NCBI GenBank assembly: GCA_900617105.1
Contig: UYFQ01000679.1
Span: 1-44,479 of the forward strand
DNA: 44,479 nt
Direction of reading: 5' to 3'
Source: Hydrurus foetidus
Taxonomy: Eukaryota
Under the pieces are notes generated by a model that was given only the letters and a program-made list of their open reading frames with translations, was not told where the DNA came from and did not search any database. Position 1 is the first letter of the stretch, and every line of letters starts with the position of its first letter. Positions 9,001 through 41,621 of the stretch are shown one piece after another. The translations under genes and the position numbers were made by a program.

Positions 9001-9700
9001 TTATGATGCGTGATCCTCGTTCAGTTGCACCATGACGCAGTCCTCGATAAAAACTATATCTGGCATTTCGTTTTTCACCAGGGACTGTTGGGAATGGGTC
9101 ATATAGATTGAGAGGGACAGATTGAAGTCATAAAAGACAAATGTTGTCGTGCTAACAGATTGTGATGTTAAGATAAATGACGAATTGAAGCGAGAATAAA
9201 CTTGTGATCACCTCAATTGCATCATCTACTGTGCCAGGCTGACAGAAGAAGTTTCGTATGCCAAGATCATAGCCTTGCTTAATGAATGAAAGCGTCACAC
9301 CAGGTGGAGTTATCAAGTTCATCCCAACTTGTGACATTGGTACCGATGGATTTAGAGTTGACAAGCGATCAACGAATGTTGCCATACTGTCAACCGTCAG
9401 CAAACCCTCAATTTCGGGCAATCTTTTGTTGAATGGAATACAGTTTTTCTTGTGAGAAACCATGCAACGCAAGACCTTATTACCAAATTTGCTACGATCT
9501 TCCGTCGCCCCGATGATGATGAAGACAGATAAGTCGAAATAATTCATTAGCTTCTCGGTTTTAAAAGTGACTCCACCGCTCTGGAAGTTGTGGGGAGGTT
9601 TCAACGCCTGACGGAGAGGAAATTTAGAACTCGTGAGACGGAAACCTCCGACCATCCCAAGAATTAAGACGCAAGTGAAGAAGAGAGATTTCAAGGACAT
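9001..9700 (-). CDS. CoA-binding domain protein (YccU/CoA_binding_2-like), predicted plastid-targeted; 2 exons (9700-9212, 9084-9001)
   Basis: Family motifs IIGATEDRSKFGNKVLR, ITPPGVT, LGIRNFFCQPG. Exon 2, read manually as SLVKNEMPDIVFIEDCVMVQL..., supplies the typical C-terminal DCxxV. N-terminus is a hydrophobic signal ending VGG-F followed by an S/K/R-rich stretch. Confidence 0.85.
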
Positions 9701-10113
9701 GATGGATCAATTGATCTTAACAACAAATCCGAAACGCAACTTTTCACCACACTGGCAGAGGCGTAACTGTGACGAAATCTAGTGACGCCAACATAGAGCT
9801 ATTCAGCATTGAACGAGTCGAAGAGAGCTGTGTTTTCTGAACTCCGAACCTCCTCATGAATCGATTGACAACGATCTGCAACATCGTTCATCGTTCAAGC
9901 TTTTTCATTTATTTTCAAGTTTTACATGAAATTTTCATGCCACCCATCTGATTTTACGAAATGACGCGACACTATAAACTAGATACTCATCTGTTGAAGA
10001 TGTCAATTCAAAATGTCACATGACGAGGAATTTCAGTTAAGGCGGTCAGTGTGGATTGCGTTCACGAACATCGACAGTGCGTGACGATTCTCGTGTGACT
10101 AGAAATAGTTGGG

Positions 10114-11589
10114 ATGTTGTTGCTCTGCTTTTGCATCATACCTATTGTATTCTCCGCGGCAAGGGACATACCTATCGGGATTAATAGTGTCGACCAAACG
10201 TAAGTCGTCAAAATATTCTCTCTACCTCACTTCTTCAATAGTAGACTCATCGCGCGACCAATGAACATCTTCATAGGTCACAGGATGGCGAACAACCTGC
10301 GAAAAGCAATCATAAGTTGCGAGGCAGAAAAGGTGACGAATCGAAACCTTCAACATCACTCTTCTCTCCAACTACCGATGGTTCGGCAATTCAAAATTGG
10401 CAAAATTTAATAAATCGCAGAGGTGCAAGTGAGCAGCGAGGATTTGACACCAATAAGATTCATTGGTGCGGGATCATTTGGATGCACATTTAAGCCTTCC
10501 ATACCTTGCCTAACAGAGCGAGCAAATTTCTCTGGACCTGGTTATTTGAGCAAAGTAGTCAACATCGAGAAATATTCTAACGATGCTGAAGTTAGAATTG
10601 GAGAAATGATCACACGTATCCCAGATTTTGAGTCGTACTTCGCTCCAATACTGCAAGTATGCGTTATGGACTCGTCTTTCCTATTACCGGATGTGATAGA
10701 GCAGTGCTCAATGATGGCCGCCTCCACTGACCTCTCCATCTTCGTATCCAATTTGATGCGGTATGTTGGCACAGATTCTCTTAGGATGTATCTCTATGAA
10801 CAAACCACAAAAAGTGAAACACTCGGAATACAGGCTACTTTCAAAACGCACTATCACCTCTTACGAGCATTGACAAGTTTACAAACCCTCTCGAATCCAA
10901 TAGTGCATTTCGATCTAAAAGAGAACAATGTGCTTCTTGATGATACTACCGGTTCTCCTATCGTAATAGATTTTGGATTCTCTTTCACAAAAGAAAAGTT
11001 AATGCTGACAACACGGGATAAAAATGTGTTGAACGAATTGTTCTGGTCATACGATGGAGTGGCTAGTGGGCAAGCAAATGACTGGTGTCTTGAAGTGGAT
11101 CTGTTGAGCTACATTTCACAGATTCCTTTTAAACATCACAATGTTGAGTATAGTTCAATCATTGGTGGAACAGATATCCGTGAATTGGAAAATACCGTAG
11201 ACAGTTATATCACGAAAATGGAATTTACAAATTCTGGAATATTTCCTCCGGAAGAAGTGGAGACCTTTAGGGATGCACATAAGAAAAACTTGGGTCGATT
11301 CCTAAATTATACTTGGGGTCAATTAATAGAATACTTAATTTCTACGTGGAGTTCGTGGGACAATTTTTCTCTTTCATTGATTTACTGTACGTTTTTTGGA
11401 CGTAAACAAAGAGTGCATAATCGGTTAAATATCTTCGGTGACAGTGAATTAAATTGGATTGTCACACCGCAGACAAATCCGCTAATGTTGAAATATACGG
11501 ATATGATTACAAAAACCGTTTTGGCTCATCCAGGAAATATACAAGATCCGATTAAAACGATGAAAAATTTGGTCGCACTTTTGGTATGA
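10114..11589 (+). CDS. Protein kinase-like enzyme with N-terminal signal peptide; 3 exons (10114-10199, 10277-10332, 10421-11589)
   Basis: Kinase motifs GAGSFG, SKV lysine, alphaC Glu (AEVRIG), HFDLKENN, IDFG. The long ORF has no ATG start (GTG just after an in-frame TAA), but two phase-compatible GT-AG introns join it to MLLLCFCIIPIVFSAARDIPIG...NHKLRGRKEVQ. Confidence 0.8.
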
Positions 11590-12140
11590 GTAAAACATTT
11601 TAAGTTTTGATTTTACACGATAATTTGATGTTAATCTTCGTGACTTAATAATGTGCGTGTAAATTTAAAAAAATCGAAGAATTAGTGAATTTAATTTCAT
11701 GCTGCAATAAGATTTGGTAAAAGGTTCCAACATAAAAGAAATGTAGAGTGAAATAAAAATTAAGAATAAGGCGAACGACTTCAATGTCGTATCTTGTCTT
11801 AATGACATCATCTTGTGATGCAATCCTTTTTTTCCTCTATCATATCATATCGCGTCCAATGATTCTACATGTATTGGAATCAAGAGGTATCACCGAACTT
11901 TGAAGAAGTTGAAGCTCTAATAAGGAAAATTAAAATAACAATTATGCAAGAACACTTTATTTAATTACAAAATATATTCACAACACTGAGTAAAAAAACA
12001 CATTTATTCAAAATATAGATCAAAATCAGACTATGTCTCCTATTTCATGACATCGAAATCTATTTATTTATTATTTATTTCCTACAGGGAAAATTACAGA
12101 AGTATCTATGTAAGCGAATTTGATTTTTAATTTTTCGTTT

Positions 12141-15100
12141 TCATATTTTCGAAACTACGTATGCATACCAGTACGTAACAAAAAAATCTTGGAAATAACG
12201 ATGTACAAGATAGCACAGCAATGTCAAAAAAAATACGGCGAAAAATTTAGCTATAGTTGGTAGTGTTTCAAACCAGTTATTAACACCATCCCTGACTAGA
12301 TCAAAATGACCATCTTTTATGCCGTAGTAGAAAAAAGGAAGCCAAAATGTTAGCATTATCCTCTGAAACAAATACATTGCGTATGACGTATATCCCAGTG
12401 TTGTTATCGGCAAACTTTCTAAAAAAAATCGGGAATAATTGTATCGAGCTGAACCAGTCTGTAACATACTAACAAGAATTAAAATTAAAAATGCAAACGG
12501 TACAATAACAAACCATAACACAAATTTAATTTCTTCTTTATTTAAATCACCTAAAGTGCTCATTAGAAAGCCAATTCCTATCGCAGTAAAATCTGGAAAA
12601 AATCGCCAAATGTAGCAGCACAGAGTAAAAAAAGTGGAATCCCTTTGGGGGTGATTGTCCGTTTCATCTCCGGATAAGGAAGGACCCCTGGACCCGTTAC
12701 TGGAATTATCTAGGGACTCGGACATTTTTCTGGAGGTACCTCTTAGGGGTGAATATGTCGCTAAAATAGGGCTATTATGCTCGATATTTACCATTTCTGA
12801 TATTGATGCGGAGGGGTAGAAGTAGGAGAGAAGCCAATTACGATGTACCCACGGCCAAACAGGCTTAGTATCGGTGTGATTGTACACTCTATAGGCGAAG
12901 TCAATTACACCGATTGCCCTCAACCCCTCCATCTCCCCATCGTGACTCCTGCCCCAGTGCCAGAATGCGAAGTGTACGTTCTCTAGTACGCACGCGGCTA
13001 TTGCACCAGCAACGAAATAAGCGATAAACGTAAATGCGTTCTGTAAGGTGTAAAGTGAAATATTTTCAATATTTTCATTACTATTATTATTGGTGACTTT
13101 TCAATAAGACATGAGAAGTTGAGTACGTGAGAAGATATGTAGATGAGTGAGTAAACAATATGCGTGCAGTAAATTGAATTGTGTGTAATACAGAATGACA
13201 GAGATATTGATCTATTCTGCGATTCGTAATTTTTATGTCGACTGAAGAAAAAATTTTAGATTCATCGATAATGATGAAAACATAATGTGCTTGAGAACAC
13301 TAGAAATGGATGAAAATGAGAAAAATTTAACAGTTGTAGACAAGAAGGGGACATTGTTGATGTGAACATGTAGAGGTTAAAATGTGTGGTGACAAAAAGA
13401 AGAGAAACGGATGCGAATGAGAAAAAAATCATGAATCGAATATGAAGAAAAGAAAGAAAGAAAGAAAAAAGATCTCACCTTGGCAAATGTGTTGTATAAC
13501 ATAAACGTGAAGAGACCCAAAACAACCAAAATCCAAAAAGATACCATGACCAGCATAGTGCTCATATCAGTCCTATTATAGGCCAAAAGTACCGCTTTAT
13601 CCCCTACCCACTGTTTCCAAGTGCGACTTCTTCGTATTCTTCTAGGGGGTCTAAGAGTGAGCGGGGAAAGTTCTTCTGACGCATACGTCATTAAACGATT
13701 CTGCAACGTCATCAGAATCATTCTGCCGATACCGTATAAAATAAAGCAGTTAAGTATGATACTGGCGTAGAGGAGATTGTTCGGACCGTATAAGTGGCAG
13801 GTGGGACGATACCAAGACTGCATCCCTATCACGTACAGAACAGAGCACACAGCCTTCTGAGTGTTGTTTACTTTGTCGTCATTTACGTGCACATTGATCC
13901 AAGGAGGAATATTGAGCAGTAAAGCTACCCATAATATCGGATATAACCCGACACATCTCGAGACTATAAAAGATCGAATGTTAAATGATTTGCGGGGTAA
14001 AAGTTTTAGGCCGGCCGGACCGGTACCCCCCTTTACTGACACACTAAACCACTCCGCCCTCCCGACAGTCGGACTAGTTGAAGTGAACAACCCCTGAGAG
14101 TCTTCGGTGATTGAACTTTTTCTCACTCTGCCTATAACAGCCTCTCTTTCGTTTCTTTCGTTTCTGGGTGAGTCCATTGCACTGTTGTGATCATTGTGAC
14201 TGTGATTATTACTATTATTATTCTGGTTGTTGTGAGTGTTTTGTGTGTCATCGTTTAGTATGGGATTCAGTTGAATTTCACACACGTCATCCGGCTCAAC
14301 ATGTACGAATTGAGCAGTCTCTCTCAACTGTAAAGCTGTCGTAAACCCAGATATCATCACGAACAAGTACGTATCAGCGCTGAATGAAGATGATATCGCA
14401 TTGTGTGGGTTGTGAAAATGGTCATATAGAACTAAGAACGTAAAGATTCCTCTGACGCCTTCTATCAGCGCTCTATTAGTGGCGAGTAAATCTTCAAAGG
14501 AATTCTCTAATTTCTGCAAATCACCGGCCCCTTTAAACATCTCCCCTCCCTCTTCTTCCCCCTCCCCCATTACCTCGCAATCATAGGCTGTAGACTCATT
14601 TGTATTTGGTATTGAATTCTGATTCTCATTTTGATTTTCTATTTCACCGTATTTCCCTAGAAACGGTTTTGAAGATCCGCTTTCTAAGTCGAATTGAGAA
14701 TCTTGCGCATCTATTCTATCAGTGATACCTATTGAATGTGGAATGTTGACATTAATGTAAGATATATTAAGTCATATATTGAGGAGAATACTGTATTTGG
14801 AAGATGGAATACACTTACATAGATACATATATACTTACATACATACTTATCATGTTAGAACACACATAAATTCACACCCAAGCACACCCACACATGTATA
14901 TATAATCAATAATATACGCGCACATAATATACACATACATACATACACACACACAAATACATACATGCACATACCCAGATTTATCAAAGCCTCAGGTTTC
15001 TCTTTCTCTAAACGAATTAATAAGGACTCTGAAAAAGACCGGATAGTTACTCCCGGTGCATAGATTTTAGCCGGTTCTAGCCGTATTCCACCGAGAGAAT

Positions 15101-18100
15101 CAGATAGATATTTAATAAACATTACAGCCCCTAAAGAGTCCACACCAATTGAAGCGAAAGAGGAGTTAGTGGACGGCCTTCTTCCTCTCAACTCTTCTAT
15201 CATGTCACACACATGTCTCATCATTATCGTCACAGCTTTTGTATTTTTTAATTTACTTTTATTCATATTACGTACGGATCTTGGATCTGTAGATTCCGAA
15301 CTCTTCAAACGGACGTATCCTGGACCTTCTTCTACTTTTGTTTTTGATTGGGTATTAGGATAGGAAGATAAAGTTGTATGCTCATCCACATCGATTTTCA
15401 AGTGCATTCTTTCCCTTTCCTCCTCCTCCTCTTTTTCTCCTTCTTCCTCTTCTTCATTCAATACGTTGTTTCCATCTAGTACTTCACTATTTAAATCCGA
15501 AGTAGCATCTAATTCGCCCACACAGAGATCGCTTACGGTAGGATCCGGTAGAGCTTTACGGTCTAGTTTGCCGTTAGCCGTTTCAGGAAACACACTTATT
15601 TGCACAATGCTCCTACAAAAAGAATATTAGATGCAAATAAAATTTATGTTTGACGATCTGCTATTTGCGTTATTTTGAAATTGTCAAAATAGTGACTCAC
15701 TGCATCACGATACCGGATAATAATATTCGGCCAAATTTAACCGGATGAAGCATTAAAAATACCAAAACTGCTCACGGAGAATAATCATCAAAATAAGATA
15801 ATTGATGTAAAATATGATTTTCAGGAGCAACTTCAACTTCAAGTTGAAGCTGTACGTACTTGGGCATCATGTAGTACGTCAGTGATCTTCCCGCGTGGAT
15901 TTGGATTTCTTTTATTTGAGCTTTTGAAAGTGTAACACTTGTAACTCCTTTTATGTACAATGCTAACTTTCCGTCTTTGACAACAGCCACTTATATAAAC
16001 AATAAAAAGTGGAAAAATTAATGGTTGAAGAAAAGAGCTGTAAAAGTCTGATAGAGAAATTCAAAAATTGATATTCCGTTCGTAGATATTACATACATTG
16101 CATGTATAGAAAATCACTGCGATAAAATGCAATACATGGAGTGGGATGTGTCACGTATCCGCAGTCACTGTGGTGATGCTCAATATGAGGATGAGCTTTA
16201 GATAGATATCTGACGCACTGAAAGATACGTAATTGAAATCTCATCTTTCTTCACCTGTGCAGTACGTACTGTGGGTTGTGCGTATTAGTTATATATGATA
16301 AAACAGTGTATACTCTACAGAGAGCCGTGAAAAATAAAATATTACAAATGTAAATGAATATTTTAAGTACACGATTATAAGGTAGAAACGGTGTTTTTCT
16401 CCGCGACCAAATAAAAATTTCAATTTGGAAATAATAAATCATCTTTTCTGTCCCTAGAGTAAGTTACCTGTTTTTTCTACAAGATTATGAGAACTAAATA
16501 CGGTTTCTATTTCCGCTAATTCAATTCGAAAACCGTCAATTTTAACTTGGTCGTCCATTCTTCTCACGAAAATATATTTCCCTTGTCCTCCCTAGTCATC
16601 CAAATACACAGGGGCAAAGTGAACACTCAAATAGATGCGATGAAGGATGCAATAAGACTTCGTCAAATTTTGTGTGTGTCATAAATATGACTTTCACACT
16701 GCGCACTATGTGATGGAGGCCAAATGAACTAAACTAAACTAAACTAAACTAAACTAAATACATTCACAATTCAATAAAAGAAAATAAATCAGGAAACACA
16801 CATGGAGAAATTAATAATATTCAAAACCCCTTGACAATAATTTTGAAATTACTGGCACCTCTAATCTGGTAACAATATCTCCTGTGCGATAGACGGAACC
16901 TGGACCGAACGGATTCCTGAAGAATTTCTGACGAAATAAATCATATTCATAAATCGTAATATATCAGATAATAGGAGGAGAGACATTGCGTTTGAAGTGT
17001 GACTTCTCAAAAAGCGTTATAGACGATAAAATAGCAATGTTTCATTTGATGTAGTGAATGATTGACATATACAAAGCAATACAAAATAAAACAATAAAAT
17101 TATAATAATCTACTTTTCAGTGAATAGTGAAGAATTACAAAAAGTGAGATACGTACTTCTTTTGTGAGTTCAGGTGCATTTAGATAGCCTTTTGCCACTC
17201 CTACTCCTCCTATCCACAGTTCTCCTTCTTTATCAGGAGGCATTATTGTTTTTGGTAATATTTCGTCCTCAGATACGATGTAGAAAACCGTCTAAAATTA
17301 ATTAAATTAGAATTTAGTATTCTTCATATAGTTAGTTGTATGCATTATTTAAGTTTGTATTTTACATGAGTCATATAAATACATTGTACGTTACACATTC
17401 TCAAATATGTTTTGGCCTTATACCCTACTGCCCATTACATTGAAGACTTACAAAGCGCAACACTGAAACCAATAAAAGGAATATCCAACACATACTTTAT
17501 TTCATCACATCAATAACAATCGTAGTCATACAACAAAATATGAAATACTGCAAATCATAAACGATACCAGTAACAAAAAACATAATATAAAAGCAATCAC
17601 AATAAACAATAACATATAACACAGCAATACAAACGCACCTACCTCACTGATTGGCATTCCAATCGGTATGAGCGGTACTCCATTGCTGTATTGCAGTGTT
17701 GACACGTCTTTAGGAAGAGTGTAAGAACTCGACCAAATAGTGGTCTCAGTAGGACCATCTAGAATAAATCATAAATGTAATAAATCCGTTAAAAGGTGTG
17801 CTTTCATTTAAAATTTCCGTATTTTGTATTTGCATCTTTTACTCCACAATATAACATATCAAACTATTTGAAAACAGTTTCATTTTTCAACAACTCAAGC
17901 CAACAATCCCGTATACAATTAGTCCTTCATTATTCTGTACATGTCACGAAATGCCACTGATTATCTAATTTAATATAAACACATGTTTCACGTTTTTCTC
18001 TTTTCCCTGGATTCTTAAAAGTTGCACCATGTATTGCGCATTTAGTAAGAAAAAAATAAAAAATAAAAAGAATGCAAAGTAGTACTTACATACGTTACGA

Positions 18101-19689
18101 AGACTTCTGCTTGATTTTGCCAGTGGTAAAATACTAGCTCTGAACGCTTCGCCACCCACCTATAAAAGACGTACCGTAAAATGAAAATAATATAGGTGAA
18201 CAGTAATTTGCTTAAAAATAGTGAGCGAAAAATAAAGAAATATTGCGATATTGAAAATGAATGCAAAAGCTTTAATCCATTATGCAGCCAGACAATGAGT
18301 GTTTTAAAGATAAGAAATAGTTTGAAATTAGTCTGTGTAACATTTCGTCAATATAATGTATAGTGGAATAGAATACATAGAAAAAAAAGGAATTATTAGA
18401 AAAGAAAAAATGTATAATTGTGTTTTTATGATAAGAAAGGCAATGCTAAGATTACCAGAAAATCGATAGATGTGTCTCCCGTCCATCCCGTAGCGAAGAG
18501 CATCTATGTCGCGAAGAGCAGGATTACACGCATTGGATCAGCTTTTGTAAAATGCATATGTGCGTTCTTACTTTTATTATATACACGATTTTTTTGATGT
18601 CAACTCGTTATTTTTGCTATGAGAACCTCATTTATATTTAACAACTTCAACACACCTCAAAAGTAGTTGGTGTAGCTTGTATAACTGTGACTGCACAATC
18701 TCTGACAACATCAAGGAGATGAAAAGGGTCTTTCTGTGAACTCTGATTCACCATGACCAGAGATGCTCCGCGAAATAAAGGTAGAAACATCTCGAGAACA
18801 CTGTAAGTACAATGAAGTACGTATTAGGATTAGGATTCATTGTAATACAGTTAAGCACGTATTATGCAGTCATTGTAAGTAGAGGCATATCAATAGTTTG
18901 AGTTAGACTTACAGTACATTTGAGGAATAGAGTGCGAGTAATAGTTGATAAATGACAGCACTTTCTATACCTTATATCAAAACAGAATGTTGTCAGTCCA
19001 AGTACCCTGCTATTGCTGTCTAGATTAAGCTCGTCAGCGAACCAGTTTACAATATTCACTACTCCTGCCTGCTTGAGCATGACTCCTTTTGGTTTCCCAG
19101 TAGACCCCGAAGTGTAAAGAACGTAAGCAAGTCCGCCATCTTCTCGGTTAGAAACTTTTTCACGAGCGATAGACAAAATGGCAACTTTATTCAAATTGTT
19201 GAATGCAGGCAGGTGCAGAGTTCTCTTCACAATAGTACTAACTGTAATATCTGCATCTACCAGAGGTATGGCGGAATTTATAACGAGAGTGGGAGGCACT
19301 ATCACGCCAAGAGAGAGCGCGAGTTCAAGGCTCTCTTCGTCAGTTATCAACATTTTACATTTTGAGTGAGCAAAAATGTGAGTTTGCCTGTCCGGAGGGA
19401 ATGCTGGATCAACTGGTACATAAGCTGCTCCTGCCTTTAATATGCCTAGAATAGCCGACACGAGGCCGATTCCTCGTGTCATCATCACTGCTACAAGAGG
19501 CGTTTCAGAATCATCCTCGTTTATAGCAGCACTCTCCACGGCGCATGCTAACTCCTTGCCAATGCATGTTGCGATCTCGTCTACTTGCTGATAGCTGTAT
19601 GTCCTCCCATCTTCCAAACAGACACATGTTGATTGACCACTTTTGGCGACGGCACCTTCGAAGATATCGATTAGGCTTACCCCTTGCAT
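12141..19689 (-). CDS. NRPS-like protein: adenylation + peptidyl carrier + membrane acyltransferase-3 domain; 12 exons, ~1,450 aa
   Basis: Phase-consistent exons approx. 19689-18971, 18800-18656, 18503-18456, 18159-18090, 17758-17643, 17291-17157, 16927-16859, 16591-16468, 15989-15860, 15612-14975, 14728-13479, 13040-12141. A-domain cores: LKAGAAYVPVDP, YTSGSTGKPKG, FDISV, GGE, NVYGPTE, GELWIGGVGVAKGYL, YRTGD, RMDDQVKIDGFRIEL, YMMP, NGKLDR. Carrier motif GVDSL. AT3 motifs: IEGVRG(x)9H, FVMISGF, FIVSRCVGLYP, LGYTSYAMYLFQ, with many TM-like segments. Confidence 0.9.
16727..16758. repeat. (AAACT)n pentanucleotide microsatellite (intronic)
   Basis: About 6 tandem aacta units. Confidence 0.85.
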
Positions 19690-21516
19690 CTTGCTCTTGC
19701 AAAAAAGGAAATCAGACACTTCTTGTTCGCAGGGTATTTAATTCGTACGCAGTTTTGCAGCAGAGTTGACGGCCATTAAAGATTAAAGATGAACGGTTTT
19801 GGAATTGTTAGGAAGTGTCGTTGAGTTAGGAAGTGTTAGTAGTGCTTCCACTTCGAACTTCGACATCGGATCAATCCCGAATCCGATCCACTTTCAGAAA
19901 ATTATTGAAAATTCAAAAGCACCTTCAGGAGAAGTACGAAGTACGGTATTTACGGTAATATACTGTAGACGTACAGATTTGATGTCGTTGTTGCAGACTG
20001 AAGACAGCAGAGGGACACAGCAGGGACAGCAGGGGGCAAGGAGGCCTTGCAGGGTGTGTGTGCTGCTGGGTGCTATATACTCTACACAGCTCTCTCGCAT
20101 CATCTTGGGTCCTCATGATCACGAAATCAAATTTGAACTTGAGCCAGAAGTGCCTCGAAGATTCTGGGAAAGGAATTTTTATTAGCCGCAGAAAAGTCAC
20201 AGCAGTTGTGCAATTGTAGTAGTCGTCGAGGATAAGGTTACGTTTTTCAAATCAGTTATTTGCCATTTAAAAATTATGTCTGCCTTCATCTAACGAACAA
20301 TTGTAAAAAAAAACTGACGAGATTTAAATCGTTGACTGTCACTAGACGGATGATATTTGTCAATGTTACAGAAGCAGAATTAGGCTATTTAAAAGCGCTT
20401 TGTAAGATAAGGCAGCTATTGACGAGCAACGTCGATGCCAACTCAATGACAGGGTGTGCTGGTCTGCTCTATTGCCTATTTGATGGGTGACACCATAAAG
20501 TCCCAATTGTCTTGAAGATTGCTACCGAATGTGATTCGTGTAAGATGAGAGGATCTGATCCACTGTGCGAATCAGACACTGCCTTTTGATGATTGAAAGT
20601 TAGAGGGTAGCATTGCAACAACTTTCCTTCCAACGTTGGTATCACAGGACAGAAAAGTGCAACTGCAGTGTACCGTGCGTGACTATGGGTCCAGCTCCAG
20701 GCTCCTCGTTTATTACAGATCCACGTTTAGTCTTAACCCACCCCTATACACGACAATTAGTTGCAACGTACTGTTTTCAGTACGCTACATTTTATTGTCG
20801 TGTATAGAAATGGGTCGATCTCTAATAAACGAGGAGCCTTGAGCTGAGCTAGGATGGCTGATAAGAACAACTCACCGTATTGCGGTCCAATTCGGCCAAT
20901 GCGATGCGCGGCTACAGTGAAATCGAAAAAGAGAAGGCGAAGTAGTATCGAACGTAATTTATAAATACAATGTAATCATGTTATTGTTGAGCGCAATACG
21001 TACAAAATAATAAACGTATGTAGCTGCACATATTTTATAGCGAAATACATATGTGTCAGCAAAAATCAAATAAATTCAAATGATCTTGTACTTACAGGTG
21101 CGAACCAGAACTTTGATTCCATCTATATAAGGAGAATCTAAGAGGTAGTAATTTTCATGCCGGGATAGAACTAAGTATGATCGAGAAATCCTTATTGCTT
21201 GACTCTAACAATGCATTGAATTTCGTTAAAAGGAGTCAGGATATGGGAGGGTGAGATGAAAAAATAAGGGACAGATGAGGCAATTAGATGAGGAGAAAGG
21301 GTGATAGAGGGTGAGAAATGGATAGAGTGAGAGTGAGGAAGGTAGTCGAAGGTGAATCAGTGAAAAGGAGAGTAAACAACAGTGAGAAAGAGAGATTCAG
21401 AGAAAAAAGAATGTTGAAACAAAATCGAGACAGAAAGAAACAGAATAAGAAGTATAAGCGAATTAACCCAAAATTGGTGATACAGACTCATATCCATCTG
21501 TCATAAGTGTAACACT

Positions 21517-24030: not shown

Positions 24031-24816
24031 CCAGTGCCGGTAATAACGCGGTTTCGGTAAAAATGCGGTTATTCGACCCGGCAGCCGGCAGGTCCGATAT
24101 CTCTCCAAACTCTTCATGAAAAAGTTTTTGTCAAATATTCTGAGAGGTAATTCGATAGTTTTACATCCGTTTCGATTATTAAAATTTTCTAAAATTGATG
24201 ATTTCATCACGAGATCGACATTAGTCACTTTTGGCGACTCATCAATGTCGGATATAGATGAAGCAAGAGTATGAGTTAGGTATTCTATCTTGTAGGCAGC
24301 AGCCATATTAGTATGGATCCGCGAGGATTTCGTACAAATCACGATAGTCACTGAGATGCATCAGTTTCAGAGACCAAAAATGTGCCTTTTTAACGTATTC
24401 GGGATGCGGTTTCCCAATATTTCAACGAAAAAGGCACATTTTTGGTCTCTGAAACTGATGCATCTCAGTGACTATCGTGATTTGTACGAAATCCTCGCGG
24501 ATCCGATTTGTACGAAATCCTCGCGGATCCATACTAATATGGCTGCTGCCTACAAGATAGAATACCTAACTCATACTCTTGCTTCATCTATATCCGACAT
24601 TGATGAGTCGCCAAAAGTGACTAATGTCGATCTCGTGATGAAATCATCAATTTTAGAAAATTTTAATAATCGAAACGGATGTAAAACTATCGAATTACCT
24701 CTCAGAATATTTGACAAAAACTTTTTCATGAAGAGTTTGGAGAGATATCGGACCTGCCGGCTGCCGGGTCGAATAACCGCATTTTTACCGAAACCGCGTT
24801 ATATTACCGGCACTGG
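24031..24816. mobile_element. Foldback/MITE-like long palindrome
   Basis: Arms 24031-24391 and 24428-24816 are near-perfect reverse complements around a 36-bp spacer. Ends are CCAGTG...CACTGG, flanked on both sides by TGTA (24027-24030, 24817-24820). Confidence 0.7.
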
Positions 24817-33674: not shown

Positions 33675-33867
33675 GCGTACGGTGCCCTATTATTTGTTCG
33701 TTTTGCGTTTTGTGGTATTTATTACGATTCAATTTTTGATAGTCAAAATGACGGAAACAGAAATTTTACCGAAAAATTTATCTGCATAGCGTCAGTGTTT
33801 CATCAAAATCTGATCACAGATTCGGATTCAGCGTTTAAGCTAGACTGCTTATGCAGATATTTTCTAA
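33675..33867. mobile_element. Degenerate partial copy of the adjacent MITE end, in inverted orientation
   Basis: Aligns by eye, with indels, to the reverse complement of about 34132-34314. Confidence 0.7.
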
Positions 33868-33887
33868 TATTTCGACATTCTGAAATA

Positions 33888-34314
33888 CCGTCCGGTGCCC
33901 TATTATTAGTATTTTCAATTTCCGAAATATCATTATTTTTGGACTTCCTGAGCGCAATTATGATGCCGCTCTAGAGAGCTGTCGAGATTCAAACTAATAA
34001 TGAGCCGCTGCAAATTAAACTGTATGACAGTTATTGCGAAATGTTTCTAGTTTTTTTCCTATATTTCATTAAAGTGTGATTTTTTGACTTCTCGGTACCG
34101 GGGGATCGAATTATATCAAAATCTGGGAACGTTAGAAAATATCTGAATAAGCAGACTCGCTTAAAAAAGTGTGCTGAATCCGAAACTGTGATCAGATTTC
34201 GATGAAACACTGACGCCATTGAGATAAAATTTCCGTTTTCGTCATTTTGAGTGTAAAAAGTGAATCATAAAATCGTAATACCACAAAACGAACAAATAAT
34301 AGGGCACCGGACGG
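33888..34314. mobile_element. Tc1/mariner-type MITE (427 bp)
   Basis: Perfect 20-bp TIRs CCGTCCGGTGCCCTATTATT ... AATAATAGGGCACCGGACGG, flanked by TA at 33886-33887 and 34315-34316. No transposase ORF. Confidence 0.8.
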
Positions 34315-34941
34315 TAGATCCACAAGATGGTATACCCTGCTTGCTGAGTCAGGAATTGGGAATCTGAGTCCGGAGTCTTGAGTCCAGAGTCTAGGATCGT
34401 TGCGGGACATCAGCTATGTGATCTTCCTGGGGCGAAGAGCTGTGGAAAAATGGTTCAAGAAAGAAAGGATTTGAGTATCGTTTACATGTTCTGTGTTGGA
34501 GCTACTGCACAGGAGCCTTGGAAAAGTTGTAGTCCAGTAGGAGGTAGAAAAGAACGACGAGAGTGAGCAATGGTAGTAGCTTTGGTTACAGCGGCAGGAA
34601 CTAGGGCTAAATTCTACGTTAATTAGTTGAGTAGCGATTGCAACGTTGGCCGGAGACTTGAGACCTTGTAGAATGATATCATCTGTCCAATATCTTGCTG
34701 ACTATTACCACTGCGCCCCCGCCGCTGTCAACCGGCACCATAACTGGTCTGTCCACCATAACGCACTAATAAGATACAGACAGTACACTCATTGGATAAA
34801 TTGTTTGGAGAAGTGAAATGACTGTCCCCTTATTTTGGTTTTGGTAGGAAACCAGATACAGACGTGTAATTGGTCGATAATTTGTACTCTGTATTTTGTT
34901 CCAAAGATGATGTACGATGTACGTATAGAACAGGGTGACAC

Positions 34942-35306
34942 TGTCGGAATAACTAATGAGCTAAGTAACCGTATAAGTTATTACGTATGTACATTTGATG
35001 ACGTTTCGTACGTCGTGTGCTGTGTGGTGGTCGCTACTCCACCGGTCCAGGTTCCTTTAACCCAGGAACATCAAAATGATGAAAGTGCACCATGTTTGAC
35101 TGTGCGGGACAGCGCGATCTTTTCGCCTGTCTCCATGAACGATGTAAGCGATGTTGCATCGTTAGTTACCTTAATACTCACACCAGCAGAGCTTTCGCCT
35201 TGAGCCCGGGAAAGTTGCTAGCGCACGTGTTGAACCTGCAGAAGGAGCGCGTACCCAGGAAGGATATAGTCTTCCATTCAGTGGAAACTGATCCTTAGTT
35301 ACGACA
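34942..35306 (+). repeat. 5' LTR (365 bp)
   Basis: Direct repeat of 40936-41299 with TG...CA ends. Confidence 0.97.
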
Positions 35307-35343
35307 TAATTAACGAGTTGCTTTCGTTGCAACCAGTTGCAAC

Positions 35344-36453
35344 ATGAAAGGCAGAGGCCGAGGCCGAGAACACAATACCGCAGGCGGTCGAGCAAACCCT
35401 GCCAACGGTGGCAGAGGGAATGCTGGCCGCGGTGCGAAGCCTCCACCAAGAACAGGAACGGTAGCCGCGATTGGCGCATTCCTGGATCTTGGAAGAGAGA
35501 TGAACCATGGTAGCGTAAGCGCATGGATGAGGAAGTTCCGCGAGTACACTCGCGCGAACTACAAGTCCGATATCTCTGAGATATTCGGCAACGAGGGCAT
35601 ACCGGGTGATTACCCGCAATATGTCGCTCCAGCGGACATAGCAGCCGATGCGAACTTTATGGTATCAACAAAATGGAAGCGAGCATTGGAGCTATACGAC
35701 AGAAACGTCCTTACTCTGAGAGAGGACCGAAAGCAAGTCTTCGGACTAATGCTAGGTCAAATTAGCGAAGCGTCGAAAGCGACAATTCGAGAAGCTGAAA
35801 CCGGACTTGCAGCGATGACTGCAGAGGACCCGCTGCTACTGTTGAGAGCCATCATATTGACTCACCTATCGGATCCGAGGCTGGGAGCAGATCAGAACCT
35901 GCTGAGAGTCCGAATGGCGTATGAGACAGTCAAAATGGAGCAGAACGATGTGCTAAAGTACTACTATCAACGCTTTAAAGCGTTGAAATCTGGATACGAG
36001 GACACGATGCGGGCGTTAGGAGTCATGCCCGAGTTCAACGAGGCCATGACCGCCCACAACGAAGTACTCACTGGGATGAAATTTATGAACGGATTGAACT
36101 CCGGATACCGTCATTACGTGGAGTACTACGAGCACAGGCTCAAAGACTGGCCAGACACCCTCGAGGACGCGTACCTCGAGATGGCCAAGGTCACCCCGAA
36201 GAAGTCAGCAGCAGCAACACCACCCAACCAGACCAATGTTTTCGCTACGAAAACGGCTGGCGGTGAGAAACCAGCTGGGACAGAGAAAGGGAAAGCTAAT
36301 GGGAACGGGGGCAGAGGGAAGGGTGGGCGTACGTCGTACGGCACCCGTCCCGGCAACTGTAATAAATGCGGTGAACTTGGGCACTACTCATACGAGTGTA
36401 CAGCGGAAAGCCAAGCGGGTGCACCAGCACCCAGTGGAAAATCGGTAAACTAA
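35344..36453 (+). CDS. gag: Copia Gag with CCHC zinc knuckle
   Basis: 369-aa ORF with RGG-rich N-terminus and CNKCGELGHYSYEC knuckle. Confidence 0.92.
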   Translation: MKGRGRGREHNTAGGRANPANGGRGNAGRGAKPPPRTGTVAAIGAFLDLGREMNHGSVSAWMRKFREYTRANYKSDISEIFGNEGIPGDYPQYVAPADIAADANFMVSTKWKRALELYDRNVLTLREDRKQVFGLMLGQISEASKATIREAETGLAAMTAEDPLLLLRAIILTHLSDPRLGADQNLLRVRMAYETVKMEQNDVLKYYYQRFKALKSGYEDTMRALGVMPEFNEAMTAHNEVLTGMKFMNGLNSGYRHYVEYYEHRLKDWPDTLEDAYLEMAKVTPKKSAAATPPNQTNVFATKTAGGEKPAGTEKGKANGNGGRGKGGRTSYGTRPGNCNKCGELGHYSYECTAESQAGAPAPSGKSVN

Positions 36454-36636
36454 GTAAGATACATTATTCTCCACCCGTACACTCACCCACACCTACACCT
36501 GTACATACACCCGCACTTACATTTACACACACACCCATACACACCGATCCTCCATGTTTGGCTGATTCCACTAGCGGAATTGAAACATGTGATCATATTG
36601 TTTTTAGTGCCAATACATGCAATATATATAACATGA

Positions 36637-39600
36637 TTAGAAGTAGACACATGTGCTGGTGAGTCGGTTTTCAACGACTCATCCCTGCTGTATAATGTCG
36701 AACACGCACCCACACCTATGATTGTTAGCGGGGTGAATCCGAAAGGAAAACCGCTGATAATCAAGAAACGTGGGGTGTCGGCGTTCGGCAACGTGTATTA
36801 TAGCCCTGACTGTGCTGGTAATATATTGTCTTTTGGTAATGCTGTACGTGACTGTACTGATGTTAAGTACTTACATGACTATGATTGTTACATAGTGCAA
36901 GACGTCAGTGGAAAATATTTTTATAGATTCTCACGAGATGAGACTATGAATATATACCAATGTAATCTTGACACTATGGTAACAGAATGCATGCCAATGT
37001 TAGTTACGACAGTAGAGCAGAATAAGAAGAAGTATACAGTAAGAGAAGTCAGAGACGCGTCGTTAGCTAGAGACTATCAGCGTAGACTAGGATACGCTAG
37101 CGCAGCACAGACTATTAAGTTGATATCCCAAGGGAATTTGACTAATAGCAAAGTGACTGCGCGAGACGTACATAGAGCCATTGATATATGGGGACCGGAC
37201 GTGGGATCCCTTAAGGGGAAGACCACCAGTCACCAGGCCAAGTTAGAAGAGAAGCTACCACTGATAGGTATTGAGTACAAGACAGAACAGATTATGTATG
37301 TAGATATAATGTTTGTCAACCAAGTACCATATCTAGTATCAGTAGTGCAGCCCATCGAGTTCCTATACGTTAGCAAGTTAGCTAACCGAGAGCACAAGAG
37401 CATATGGAACAGCCTAAAGACTTCATTAGCAAGCATGGTAAAGTACAGATTCAGAGTTAAGATGATCCGAGTAGACGGCGAGGGTGCAATCAATACAGAA
37501 TGGTTTCACAACAAAGTCGGCTTAAGAGGTATAGTACTAGACGTTACCGGAGCCGGAGAAGCCGTAGCCGTAGTCGAGCGTAAGATACGACACATAAAGG
37601 AGAGAGTAAGATCAGTAGTCAATTCTCTACCGTTCTCATTGAATGAGAAATTAGAAGTGTGGTTAGTTAAGTATGCAGTCAGTAGAATTGTATTAGCACC
37701 CACACGTAACTCACTTAATCACATCAGTCCACGAGAGAAATTAACTGGAAGAAAGTTAGACGTAGATAAGGAGATTAAACATGGTTTTGGTGATTATGTC
37801 CAAGTGCATAATGATGTCATTGATAACTCTACCAAACCAAGAACAGCCGGGGCCATAGCACTTATGAGCTCCGGTAATCTAGAAGGTTCATGGTACTACA
37901 TGCTGTTAGCTAACGAACGTATTGTTAAACGTACTAAAGCGACTGTACTACCTATGCCTGATGAAGTGATATTACACTTGAATGTATTAGCTTCAAAGAG
38001 AAAAACTGCCAATGTTAAACAGCCTGTATTTGAGAATAGTAGTCACATTGTATTCGATGATGATGACGATGTTGAAGATGATAGTGCTTACATTGGTGAT
38101 GTTGAATATGAAACTGTCGATGAAAATGCTAACGCAGATTACACCGATGAGATTATTGAAGATAACGATCACAATGATAACGAAACACATCTTGAATCAC
38201 AACTCGATATGTCTGATGAAAATCACCCACCCACATTAGATGAGTATGTAGATGACACACTATATGTGAGTGACACTACATACGACAATGACGAACTATA
38301 TTATGATGACACACATGATGACACACATGTACCCCAACCTAAATATGATCAAGCACTGATAGATGACATATTTGGCATAAGTGATGATGAAGATGACTTT
38401 GCTGATGTAACTGTACACACTGAAGTATTCACACCACCTGCCACCATAATTGAAACCGCATATGACCCACCCGTTGTAAACTCACCCGTGTTACGTAGAA
38501 GTGGTAGAAATCACCAACTTGGTAAATGGGATAAGAAATATGTTGGTAATCTGTTCTACAACCACACTCACCTGTACAAAATGACTGTTAATGAGGGAAT
38601 TAATAAGTTAGGGGTGATAGCTGTTGATTCCATTACATCTGAATTGAAACAAATGTGTGATAAGAATGTTTGGGAAGGTGTAACTTACGAATCCCTCACC
38701 CCACAACAAAAACGCACCATTATACCTAGTAGCATGTTCTTGAAAGAAAAGTATACTGCTGATGGTATGTTTGAAAAACTGAAATCTAGACTAGTAGCCG
38801 GTGGGCACTTACAAGATAGAGATGTTTATAACAATGGCGCCTCACCTACTGCTAGCACATCTAGTGTATTCATGCTGACTGCAATTGCTGCTAGACAGAA
38901 GCGTGCTGTCGCCACTGTTGACTTTCCCGGTGCATTCCTGAATAGTGATATGCCGCTGACCGGCGACCATGTTGTATACATGCGTCTGAATAAACAACTG
39001 ACTGCTGCACTAATTAAGATTGATGCAACATATAACAAATACATGAATAACAATGGAACATGTATTGTTAAACTTAAGAAAGCTTTATATGGATGCGTTG
39101 AATCTGCTAAACTATGGTATGATAAACTATCCAGTGATTTGATCAAATTCAATTATACTGCTAATGAATATGACATATGCGTATTCAACCGAACTGAATC
39201 GGATAACACACAAACATCACTCGTAATTCATGTTGATGATATGATAATCACTGCTTCAAATGAATCTCGCGTTGATGATGTTATAAAACAAATTGAAACT
39301 ATATATCCCGGTCTAACGAAACATAGAGGAAAAGTTTTAAATTACATAGGCATGACTTTCGACTTCAGCAAGGAAGGCTGCGTTAAGATGACTATGGAGG
39401 GCTTCGTGCAAGACCTCATTGAGGGGTGTAAGGATATGCCGGGCACGGCAAACACACCTGCACGAGCCAATCTATTCACTATACCTGATGAATCTGACTC
39501 ACCCTTACCTGATAATCTGCGTGAGCGTTTTCACTCTATTACAGCGAAGCTACTCTACCTGAGTAAGAGGACGAGGCCAGACATTCTGACTGCCGTAGCG

Positions 39601-40301
39601 TTCCTGACAAAGAGAGTGCTGAGGCCCCAAAGGGACGACTACGACAAGCTGACCCGTACGATACAGTACATACGGGGTAGTCAGCATACGGGTATAACAT
39701 TTGAAGTATATGAACCTATTCATGTTATTGCATATATCGATGCATCCTTTGCCATACATCCCGATATGAAAAGTCACACAGGCAGCGTAATCACCCTTGG
39801 GAAGGGAGCGATCTACGCCAAGAGCGGTACTCAGCGCCTGATGACAAAGTCCAGCACGGAGGCCGAGCTAGTCGCACTCAGCGACGCTGCCAACCAAGTT
39901 CTGTGGACCAGGAACTTCCTGGAGTGCCAGGGACACCCTCAACCTCCCGCCTTAGTGTATCAAGACAATCAGTCTACGATACAGCTCATACGTAACGGTC
40001 GCTCGAACAGCGAACGTACGCGGCACGTTGATATACGGTATTTTTCCTGCACGACAGAATCAGTACAGGCGATGTAGACATTGTGTACCTACCTACTACT
40101 GACATGATTGCAGACATTCTAACCAAGCCACTGCAGGGTGAATTGTTCAAGAAGCTCAGGAAGGAGCTGCTCAACACTTCACCACCTACCCTCACGTACG
40201 CAGATGGATGCAAGACTGAGGACCGTACGGACTCCGCGCCGACACCCGTACGCACCAAATTCAACCCACGATTTCCATACCCTACGTCCAAGAAGAACTA
40301 A
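36637..40301 (+). CDS. pol: Copia Pol (protease, integrase, reverse transcriptase, RNase H) with apparent 1-bp frameshifts
   Basis: Protease VDTCAGES (upstream of the listed ATG). Integrase DDE: YVDIMF, RVDGEG, VVERKIR. RT: KSRLVAGG, DFPGAFLN, KALYG, HVDD. RNase H: YIDAS, STEAEL, QDNQ, and ADILTKPL in a shifted frame after about 40045. Confidence 0.92.
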
Positions 40302-40517: not shown

Positions 40518-40935
40518 TCCATCATTTTCTTCTACCCCATCAAGTGCGACTCAAGAAAACCCTGACAGAGACATAAAGAGCGAGGACCGTGGAGACCCGA
40601 CCCAGACCCAAGACCCGATTCCGGAATCAGATAGTATAACAAGTCAGAAAATTATTTTAAGTGTAATCTTTTGCGTGTTACATAAAGTCTTTTTAGAATT
40701 GTTTAACTCTATGCTCATTCGGATCAGTCAGACCTTATGATACTAATATTACCCTGCATGCAATAAATTATCTAACGTCACAATTAAGGTCAACCCCACC
40801 ATTACCCTACTTCCCTACAATATAAAATCATGTTATGATACACCATTTGTGAAGCTTCAAGTAAACGGAGCATTTTTGAATTCTATTGCGTTTTCATTCG
40901 CGTACACCAACCCGACGACTCACGCCATAGGGGTG

Positions 40936-41299
40936 TGTCGGAATAACTAATGAGCTAAGTAACCGTATAAGTTATTACGTATGTACATTTGATGACGTTT
41001 CGTACGTCGTGTGCTGTGTGGTGGTCGCTACTCCACCGGTCCAGGTTCCTTTAACCCAGGAACATCAAAATGATGAAAGTGCACCATGTTTGACTGTGCG
41101 GGACAGCGCGATCTTTTCGCCTGTCTCCATGAACGATGTAAGCGATGTTGCATCGTTAATTACCTTAATACTCACACCAGCAGAGCTTTCGCCTTGAGCC
41201 CGGGAAAGTTGCTAGCGCACGTGTTGAACCTGCAGAAGGAGCGCGTACCCAGGAAGGATATAGTTTCCATTCAGTGGAAACTGATCCTTAGTTACGACA
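40936..41299 (+). repeat. 3' LTR (364 bp)
   Basis: Differs from the 5' LTR by one substitution and one 1-bp indel, as read by eye. Confidence 0.97.
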
Positions 41300-41621
41300 G
41301 ACACATCATCACGCACGCATCATGCATCGTGCACGTACCACGTACACACACGTCACTCAACTCTCATTGTCTGATAATATTATCAACAAGCACTGTTACT
41401 GGCAATTCGAATTGGGCATCCATAATCCATATGGTAGTTTTGATGCATTCACCCAGTTAAGTAATGAATCCTGACCAGCAGATGCAACTTCGTCCAATCG
41501 GTTATTTCTGCAGTATGGTAGCTGAATCAGCACTTTAAAAAAAAAGTCGAATTCCCCTCATCCGTCACTGCGACAGCTGGGTGTAAATTACAAACTCTCT
41601 GAAACGTCTGGACTCGTCAGA

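What the first reader, a model, noticed from the sequence alone, without database searches (positions are those of the whole stretch)
35151..35346. Copia element without a tRNA PBS: primer site is complementary to its own LTR (possible self-priming)
Seen: the bases after the 5' LTR are TAATTAACGA (35307-35316), not TGG.... Their reverse complement TCGTTAATTA occurs exactly in the 3' LTR (41153-41162) and as TCGTTAGTTA in the 5' LTR (35159-35168). The single inter-LTR substitution I found falls here and leaves a G-U wobble. The adjacent ATGTTGCA (35151-35158) can also pair with TGCAACAT over the gag start (35338-35345). Established: Tf1-type Ty3/gypsy elements self-prime with about 11 nt of the transcript 5' end. 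Inference: this Copia lineage does likewise, which would be unusual for Ty1/Copia.
Basis: partly seen in the sequence, partly recalled or inferred. Interest (0 to 1): 0.78.

Follow-up and report, generated by a model that had tools for sequence, protein, structure and literature searches.

The report
Self-priming Copia retrotransposon, freshwater algal lineage
This jumping gene has no tRNA-binding site; the ten bases after its left repeat match a piece of that repeat, and most testable relatives keep such a match with different letters, so the lineage likely starts copying itself with the front end of its own RNA, as shown for fission-yeast Tf1 and predicted for one plant Copia group.

Summary
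Core observation confirmed. The element is a young Copia (LTRs 34942-35306 and 40936-41299, 5-bp target duplication). The 10 nt after the 5' LTR complement LTR bases 41153-41162 (5 of 20,000 shuffles). In a blind scan, 29 of 42 elements had a perfect own-LTR complement of 10-33 nt starting right after a CA, against 2.4% for other elements' LTRs; one of the 29 is not at the LTR end. In a curated set of 30, all primer sites differ, none starts TGG, and 17 have the complement's 5' edge on an initiator-like C|A (5% background). Tf1-like self-priming is the best reading (0.85); no start site or cleavage was shown. Corrections: the 'G-U wobble' base is private to this copy; there is a second LTR difference; the ATGTTGCA helix is not conserved and lies upstream of the predicted start. 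Self-priming is already predicted for plant Copia TAR, so it is not unprecedented for Copia. Unlike Tf1, duplex length varies and no flanking 'pretzel' helices were detected. This scan reported the same trait before on other DNA (32 notes, at least 6 genomes; most of the eight shown are called diatom). This host is probably a golden alga (weak evidence).

The parts
34937..34941 (+). 5-bp target-site duplication, left copy (GACAC)
34942..35306 (+). 5' LTR, 365 nt, TGTCG...CGACA
35138..35163 (+). 10-bp hairpin straddling the predicted start; would mask the primer only in RNA that includes U3. Compensatory change in host variants; not lineage-wide
35158..35159 (+). predicted transcription start (initiator-like CA|T)
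   Evidence: inferred; not measured
35159..35168 (+). predicted self-primer (G at 35165 private to this copy; A in the family)
35307..35316 (+). primer-binding site TAATTAACGA, no spacer after the LTR
35345..36453 (+). gag with CCHC zinc knuckle
36637..40077 (+). pol reading frame (protease, DDE integrase, RT, RNase H in Copia order); frame broken just upstream of the protease motif (about 36640) and near the RNase H end (about 40045)
40928..40935 (+). polypurine tract ending GGGGTG
   Evidence: same ending in relatives
40936..41299 (+). 3' LTR, 364 nt
41153..41162 (+). 3' LTR copy of the primer segment, exact complement of the PBS
41300..41304 (+). target-site duplication, right copy

Best explanation
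The ten bases after the 5' LTR complement a segment of the element's own LTR, and this Copia lineage likely primes reverse transcription with the 5' end of its own RNA instead of a host tRNA. Inferred steps: transcription starts at the initiator-like CA at 35158-35159; the first 10-11 nt fold back over a 138-nt loop onto the PBS; a cut after 35168, by the element's RNase H if it works like Tf1, frees a 3'-OH that sits exactly at the LTR edge; RT copies U5 and R and jumps to the 3' R. Primer and PBS would then change together, by selection and perhaps because plus-strand synthesis copies the attached primer back into the PBS. This particular copy has two frame breaks in pol and may be inactive.
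For: Own-LTR perfect complement of at least 10 nt anchored right after a CA in 29 of 42 elements, against 2.4% with other elements' LTRs and 1.5% with shuffles; at least 12 nt in 16 of 42 against 0.2%. Relatives are 43-58% identical in RT/RNase H. 30 of 30 PBS 10-mers differ, 0 of 30 have TGG within 8 nt; close sisters show 1-4 matched changes on both sides. The duplex never extends onto the LTR's terminal CA (0 of 30). Its 5' edge is C|A in 17 of 30, within one base in 23 of 30, background 5.2%. RNA folded from 35158 has this duplex as outer helix in both MFE and centroid; pairing probability above 0.5 in 23 of 26 relatives. Host variants C35160T and G35315A hit the two sides of one pair (phase not shown). 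Tf1 precedent.
Against: No start site, cleavage or cDNA intermediate was observed; all runs were contigs. 13 of 42 failed the blind cut-off, and one pass (L068) was at a CA inside the LTR end. L032 has a full LTR and no match; L054, L030/L060 and L031 are unexplained. LTR ends of relatives are inferred from collapsed contigs. No TATA box upstream. Tf1's two flanking duplexes were not detected. Host tRNAs could not be searched. The relatives share ancestry, so counts are not independent.
Confidence: 0.85

Rival explanations
1. The pairing is a structural element (packaging, dimerisation or translation control) and priming uses another RNA or site.
For: Duplex length varies 10-33 nt, more than a fixed cut needs. 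Fungal GalEa carry a conserved non-tRNA hairpin at the PBS position, in some families with the same TAATTA core.
Against: The duplex ends exactly at the LTR edge in all 30 curated elements and occupies the one place where a primer must sit; no partner hairpin downstream as in GalEa.
Confidence: 0.07
2. The 3' end of the transcript (or a piece cut from the 3' R copy at 41153-41162) is the primer, not the 5' end.
For: The same segment exists in the 3' LTR, where this copy's match is perfect.
Against: The complement stops at an initiator-like CA on its 5' side, expected only if the RNA begins there. With U3 attached, a hairpin hides the segment in this element.
Confidence: 0.04
3. A host tRNA or tRNA fragment primes, and the LTR match is incidental.
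For: Half-tRNA primers exist in Copia (Osser, Bryco, Bianca). PBS starts are biased to YAAT. Host tRNAs were not available.
Against: 30 different PBS 10-mers, each matched by its own LTR and not by others'; no TGG.
Confidence: 0.03
4. Chance match in AT-rich sequence.
For: The PBS is short and AT-rich; under the permissive blind statistic this copy alone is reached by 6% of shuffles.
Against: 5 of 20,000 shuffles at the true LTR end; lineage-wide excess over both controls.
Confidence: 0.01

Closest known systems
Tf1/Tf2 of Schizosaccharomyces pombe and the Tf1/sushi group (Ty3/gypsy chromoviruses)
   Same: PBS directly after the LTR, complementary to the RNA's predicted 5' end; about 11 nt; no tRNA (passages of PMC7175516 and bioRxiv 10.1101/2022.12.06.519325).
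   Different: Copia domain order; duplex 10-33 nt across relatives; no flanking 'pretzel' duplexes detected; no TATA box; mechanism untested here.
Plant Ty1/copia TAR lineage (Houba, Osr-1, Fourf)
   Same: Copia superfamily, 5-bp TSD, predicted self-priming by the same criterion (at least 10 bp, 0-5 nt after the LTR); 89% of 203 elements (PMC6317226).
   Different: Non-plant host; weak RVT_2 score and no integrase Pfam hit in 34 of 34 relatives; integrase lacks HHCC. No TAR sequence was available, so the relationship is untested.
GalEa clade (metazoan tRNA-Met PBS; fungal Conserved Hairpin Site)
   Same: Motifs KxRLVA, HVDD, TRPDI; fungal members lack a tRNA PBS and some start with a TAATTA-containing palindrome (PMC5445492).
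   Different: Fungal CHS is nearly invariant, pairs downstream, and the authors found no LTR complement; here the site is variable and pairs with the LTR. DFPGAF replaces DVKAAY/DITQAY.
CoDi1-7 diatom Copia elements (Maumus et al. 2009)
   Same: Copia from aquatic microalgae; the resemblance of the pol sequence is recalled, not tested.
   Different: The paper's main text has no mention of tRNA or priming; its supplements were unreadable; no reference sequence could be fetched.

Membership tests
Ty1/copia superfamily | PR-IN-RT-RH order, Copia-type RT | tested here: met
   RVT_2 hit; invariant D, D, E upstream of RT in 34 of 34; protease motif first, RNase H last
Ty1/copia superfamily | TG...CA LTRs, 5-bp TSD, PPT | tested here: met
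Ty1/copia superfamily | HHCC zinc finger in integrase | tested here: not met
   no HHCC in the aligned region of 34 sequences; a lineage trait, does not undo the RT and domain-order call
Self-primed LTR elements (Tf1 mechanism) | no tRNA-type PBS; PBS complementary to own LTR, abutting the LTR end | tested here: met
Self-primed LTR elements (Tf1 mechanism) | complement lies at the 5' end of the RNA | tested here: inconclusive
   initiator-like edge in 17 of 30; only contigs available, no start mapped
Self-primed LTR elements (Tf1 mechanism) | RNase H cut releases the primer | not testable with these tools
   needs biochemistry
Self-primed LTR elements (Tf1 mechanism) | three-duplex 'pretzel' structure | tested here: not met
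   mean z -0.24 to -0.31 in 27 elements; U5-leader mean z -0.08 in 30; short or bulged helices could be missed
Tf1/sushi group | Ty3/gypsy order and chromodomain | tested here: not met
   Copia order; no chromodomain hit
TAR lineage | clusters with TAR in RT/RH/INT trees | not testable with these tools
   reference files too large to read; indirect signs against
Fungal GalEa | invariant CHSeq1 with downstream CHSeq2 hairpin; QTDD and CQPEA motifs | tested here: not met
   variable PBS; HVDD/YVDD and RPD motifs against the paper's tables
CoDi groups | RT clusters with a CoDi reference | not testable with these tools
   no named CoDi among hits; supplements unavailable

The most novel reading that the evidence does not exclude
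A large Copia lineage of stramenopile algae evolved tRNA-free priming independently of Tf1/sushi and of plant TAR, in a minimal form: one duplex of 10-33 nt set by the start site and the LTR edge, with no fixed sequence beyond YAAT and no pretzel scaffold, cut by a Copia RNase H. Primer choice would then be far more switchable than the Copia tRNA-Met rule suggests.
Probability: 0.55. Interest if true: 0.72.

Novelty: new variant of a known kind. Interest (0 to 1): 0.56.

Why it matters
Self-priming has been shown experimentally for a Ty3/gypsy element and predicted for one plant Copia lineage. A third, deeply branched lineage with dozens of natural compensatory variants gives testable rules (start at CA, cut at the LTR edge, free duplex length) and asks whether a Copia RNase H can cut an RNA-RNA duplex. 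It also means tRNA-based PBS filters will miss or mis-score these abundant algal elements. Six literature searches listed no paper that, by title, abstract start or the passages read, reports it for algal Copia; subscription journals and GyDB pages were not searchable.

Tried and rejected
No host genome held, so no tRNA search; no tRNA gene in the window; no Rfam hit in the element. Viral-contig scan: no relatives. An automatic terminal-inverted-repeat rule for LTR ends was noisy (34 loci called, many with several ends) and was replaced by the blind all-CA scan. Second helix, U5-leader helix, pretzel helices and a lineage-wide U3 masking hairpin all showed no excess. No TATA box. Depth profiles and contig ends of the RNA-labelled runs X17, X19, X20 were not used: contigs cannot show starts, and X19/X20 hold small shares. 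No PDB relative. Cluster members gave no organism names. Two primary Tf1 papers were not held. The tree is the quick search, midpoint-rooted, without reference lineages. No earlier scan note matched by sequence or by chrysophyte words.

Full report
Anatomy. The finding lies in a complete LTR element: LTRs at 34942-35306 and 40936-41299, TGTCG...CGACA, flanked by GACAC on both sides, with a purine tract before the 3' LTR. The LTRs differ by one substitution (35165) and one 1-nt indel (near 35271), so the insertion is young. Gag has a CCHC knuckle; pol has protease, DDE integrase, RT (RVT_2, E 3.5e-22) and RNase H in Copia order. The pol frame of this copy is broken just upstream of the protease motif and near the RNase H end, by mutation or assembly error. 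The family is repetitive in an organism held in freshwater, sediment and glacier runs. One flanking gene's best named eukaryote hit is Ochromonas danica at 43%, a weak pointer to a golden alga.

Observation. The 10 nt after the 5' LTR are exactly complementary to 41153-41162; 5 of 20,000 doublet shuffles of that LTR reach 10. At 35165 the whole depth reads A in 7 of 8 runs laid and 10,600 of 10,642 in X4. The G is therefore private to this copy or an error, and the family duplex is perfect.

Relatives. A metagenome scan kept the best 80 of 520 matches, 78 loci. 37 lacked the gag-side region and were skipped; 41 plus the window were tested. For every CA within 200 nt of the gag start I took the longest following stretch with a perfect complement in the element's own upstream or 3' sequence, and repeated this with other elements' sequence and with shuffles. 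At least 10 nt: 29 of 42 own, 2.4% cross, 1.5% shuffled. At least 12 nt: 16 of 42, 0.2%, 0.1%. Lengths reach 33. One pass (L068) is at a CA inside the LTR end; at its true end it pairs 11 nt with one mismatch. Of 13 failures, L029 and L072 had gag mis-called and pair 10 and 14 nt at the LTR end; L051 pairs 11 with one mismatch, L041 and L052 pair 9; L012, L039 and L064 have little LTR sequence; L032 has a full LTR and no match; L054, L030/L060 and L031 are unexplained. The curated set of 30 is the 28 true passes plus L029 and L072. Many contigs are collapsed single-LTR assemblies, so LTR ends rest on the terminal inverted repeat with the LTR start. RT/RNase H identity to the window is 43-58%, and the trait is spread over the whole tree.

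Covariation and geometry. All 30 PBS 10-mers differ; none has TGG; only the first four bases (YAAT) are biased. Close sisters differ at 1-4 of the first 10 PBS positions with matching LTR changes (for example L004/L005, L022/L076, L049/L057/L065, L050/L056); the match is built into the selection, the differences are not. In 0 of 30 does pairing run on over the LTR's terminal CA, so the partner's 3' end abuts the LTR edge, as a primer must. On the other side the complement begins at C|A in 17 of 30 and within one base of it in 23 of 30, against 5.2% per position. A CA-centred initiator, TCAH(+1)W, is proposed for diatom genes (passages of PMC4686930). No TATA box is seen. In the window the edge is GCA|TCG, so the start would be 35158 or 35159. 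RNA folded from 35158 closes with this duplex (z -2.5); from 35120 it does not. In the host's own variants, C35160T and G35315A fall on the two sides of one pair; they are not phased and their shares differ.

What did not hold. The ATGTTGCA/TGCAACAT helix shows no excess in 30 elements, lies upstream of the predicted start, and a host variant changes 35152 with no listed change at 35344. Those bases instead belong to a local hairpin, 35138-35163; one X19 contig appears to carry G35141A with C35160T plus three loop changes (equal depth). This hairpin is not lineage-wide (4 of 30 with z below -2). Tf1's two flanking duplexes were not detected in 27 elements.

Mechanism. Shown: no tRNA-type PBS, a covarying duplex, exact register with the LTR edge, an initiator-like 5' edge. 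Inferred by analogy with Tf1, whose first 11 nt pair with the PBS and are cut off by RNase H (passages of PMC7175516): start at the CA, fold-back, cut, extension. Confidence 0.85.

Comparison. Neumann et al. 2019 (PMC6317226; passages and supplementary table 5) predict self-priming for Copia TAR (89% of 203) and cite Houba and Osr-1, so self-priming Copia is not new. Donnart et al. 2017 (PMC5445492; passages, section 10, two supplementary tables) describe fungal GalEa with a non-tRNA hairpin site and no LTR complement. Maumus et al. 2009 (PMC2806351; passages and section 6) do not discuss priming; supplements unseen and may bear on this. Passages of PMC3601003, PMC5776459 and PMC3587641 added nothing on algal priming. 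No TAR or CoDi reference could be placed in the tree, so independent origin is an inference from the host, the weak RVT_2 score with no integrase hit in 34 of 34 and the missing HHCC. Earlier notes of this scan report the same trait in at least 6 other genomes; they are unchecked and are not counted as support.

Verdict. A real, well-supported new variant of a known mechanism, unreported for algal Copia in the six searches run, and awaiting a start-site map. Interest 0.56.

Noticed in passing
window 37078-37220 (pol residues about 148-195); alignment A2: The integrase N-terminal region lacks the HHCC zinc finger in all 34 aligned relatives and has a conserved G..L..LKG(K/M)T motif instead, while D, D and E stay invariant.
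   Followed up: partly
window 36422-36660: Pol appears to begin in another frame overlapping the gag end, which suggests frameshift expression in this subclade; most of the 25 relatives listed have gag open in frame up to the pol match.
   Followed up: partly
window 35138-35163: Hairpin across the predicted start with a compensatory G-C to A-U change and loop-only changes in host variants; could hide the 3' copy of the primer.
   Followed up: partly
window 24043-24802: Perfect 298-nt inverted repeat with a nested 77-nt perfect inverted repeat and a 26-nt tandem duplication: fold-back element or assembly artefact.
   Followed up: no
window 33676-34316: Nested imperfect inverted repeats, MITE-like, about 600 nt upstream of the 5' LTR.
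   Followed up: no
window 9152-19737, minus strand: Exons with CoA-binding, phosphopantetheine-attachment and AMP-binding domains: an NRPS-like gene.
   Followed up: no
L016, L036, L046 (after the 5' LTR): Very long perfect LTR-PBS complements of 33, 25 and 21 nt.
   Followed up: no
L032: Full LTR but no complement to the post-LTR sequence: possible exception or mis-called LTR end.
   Followed up: partly
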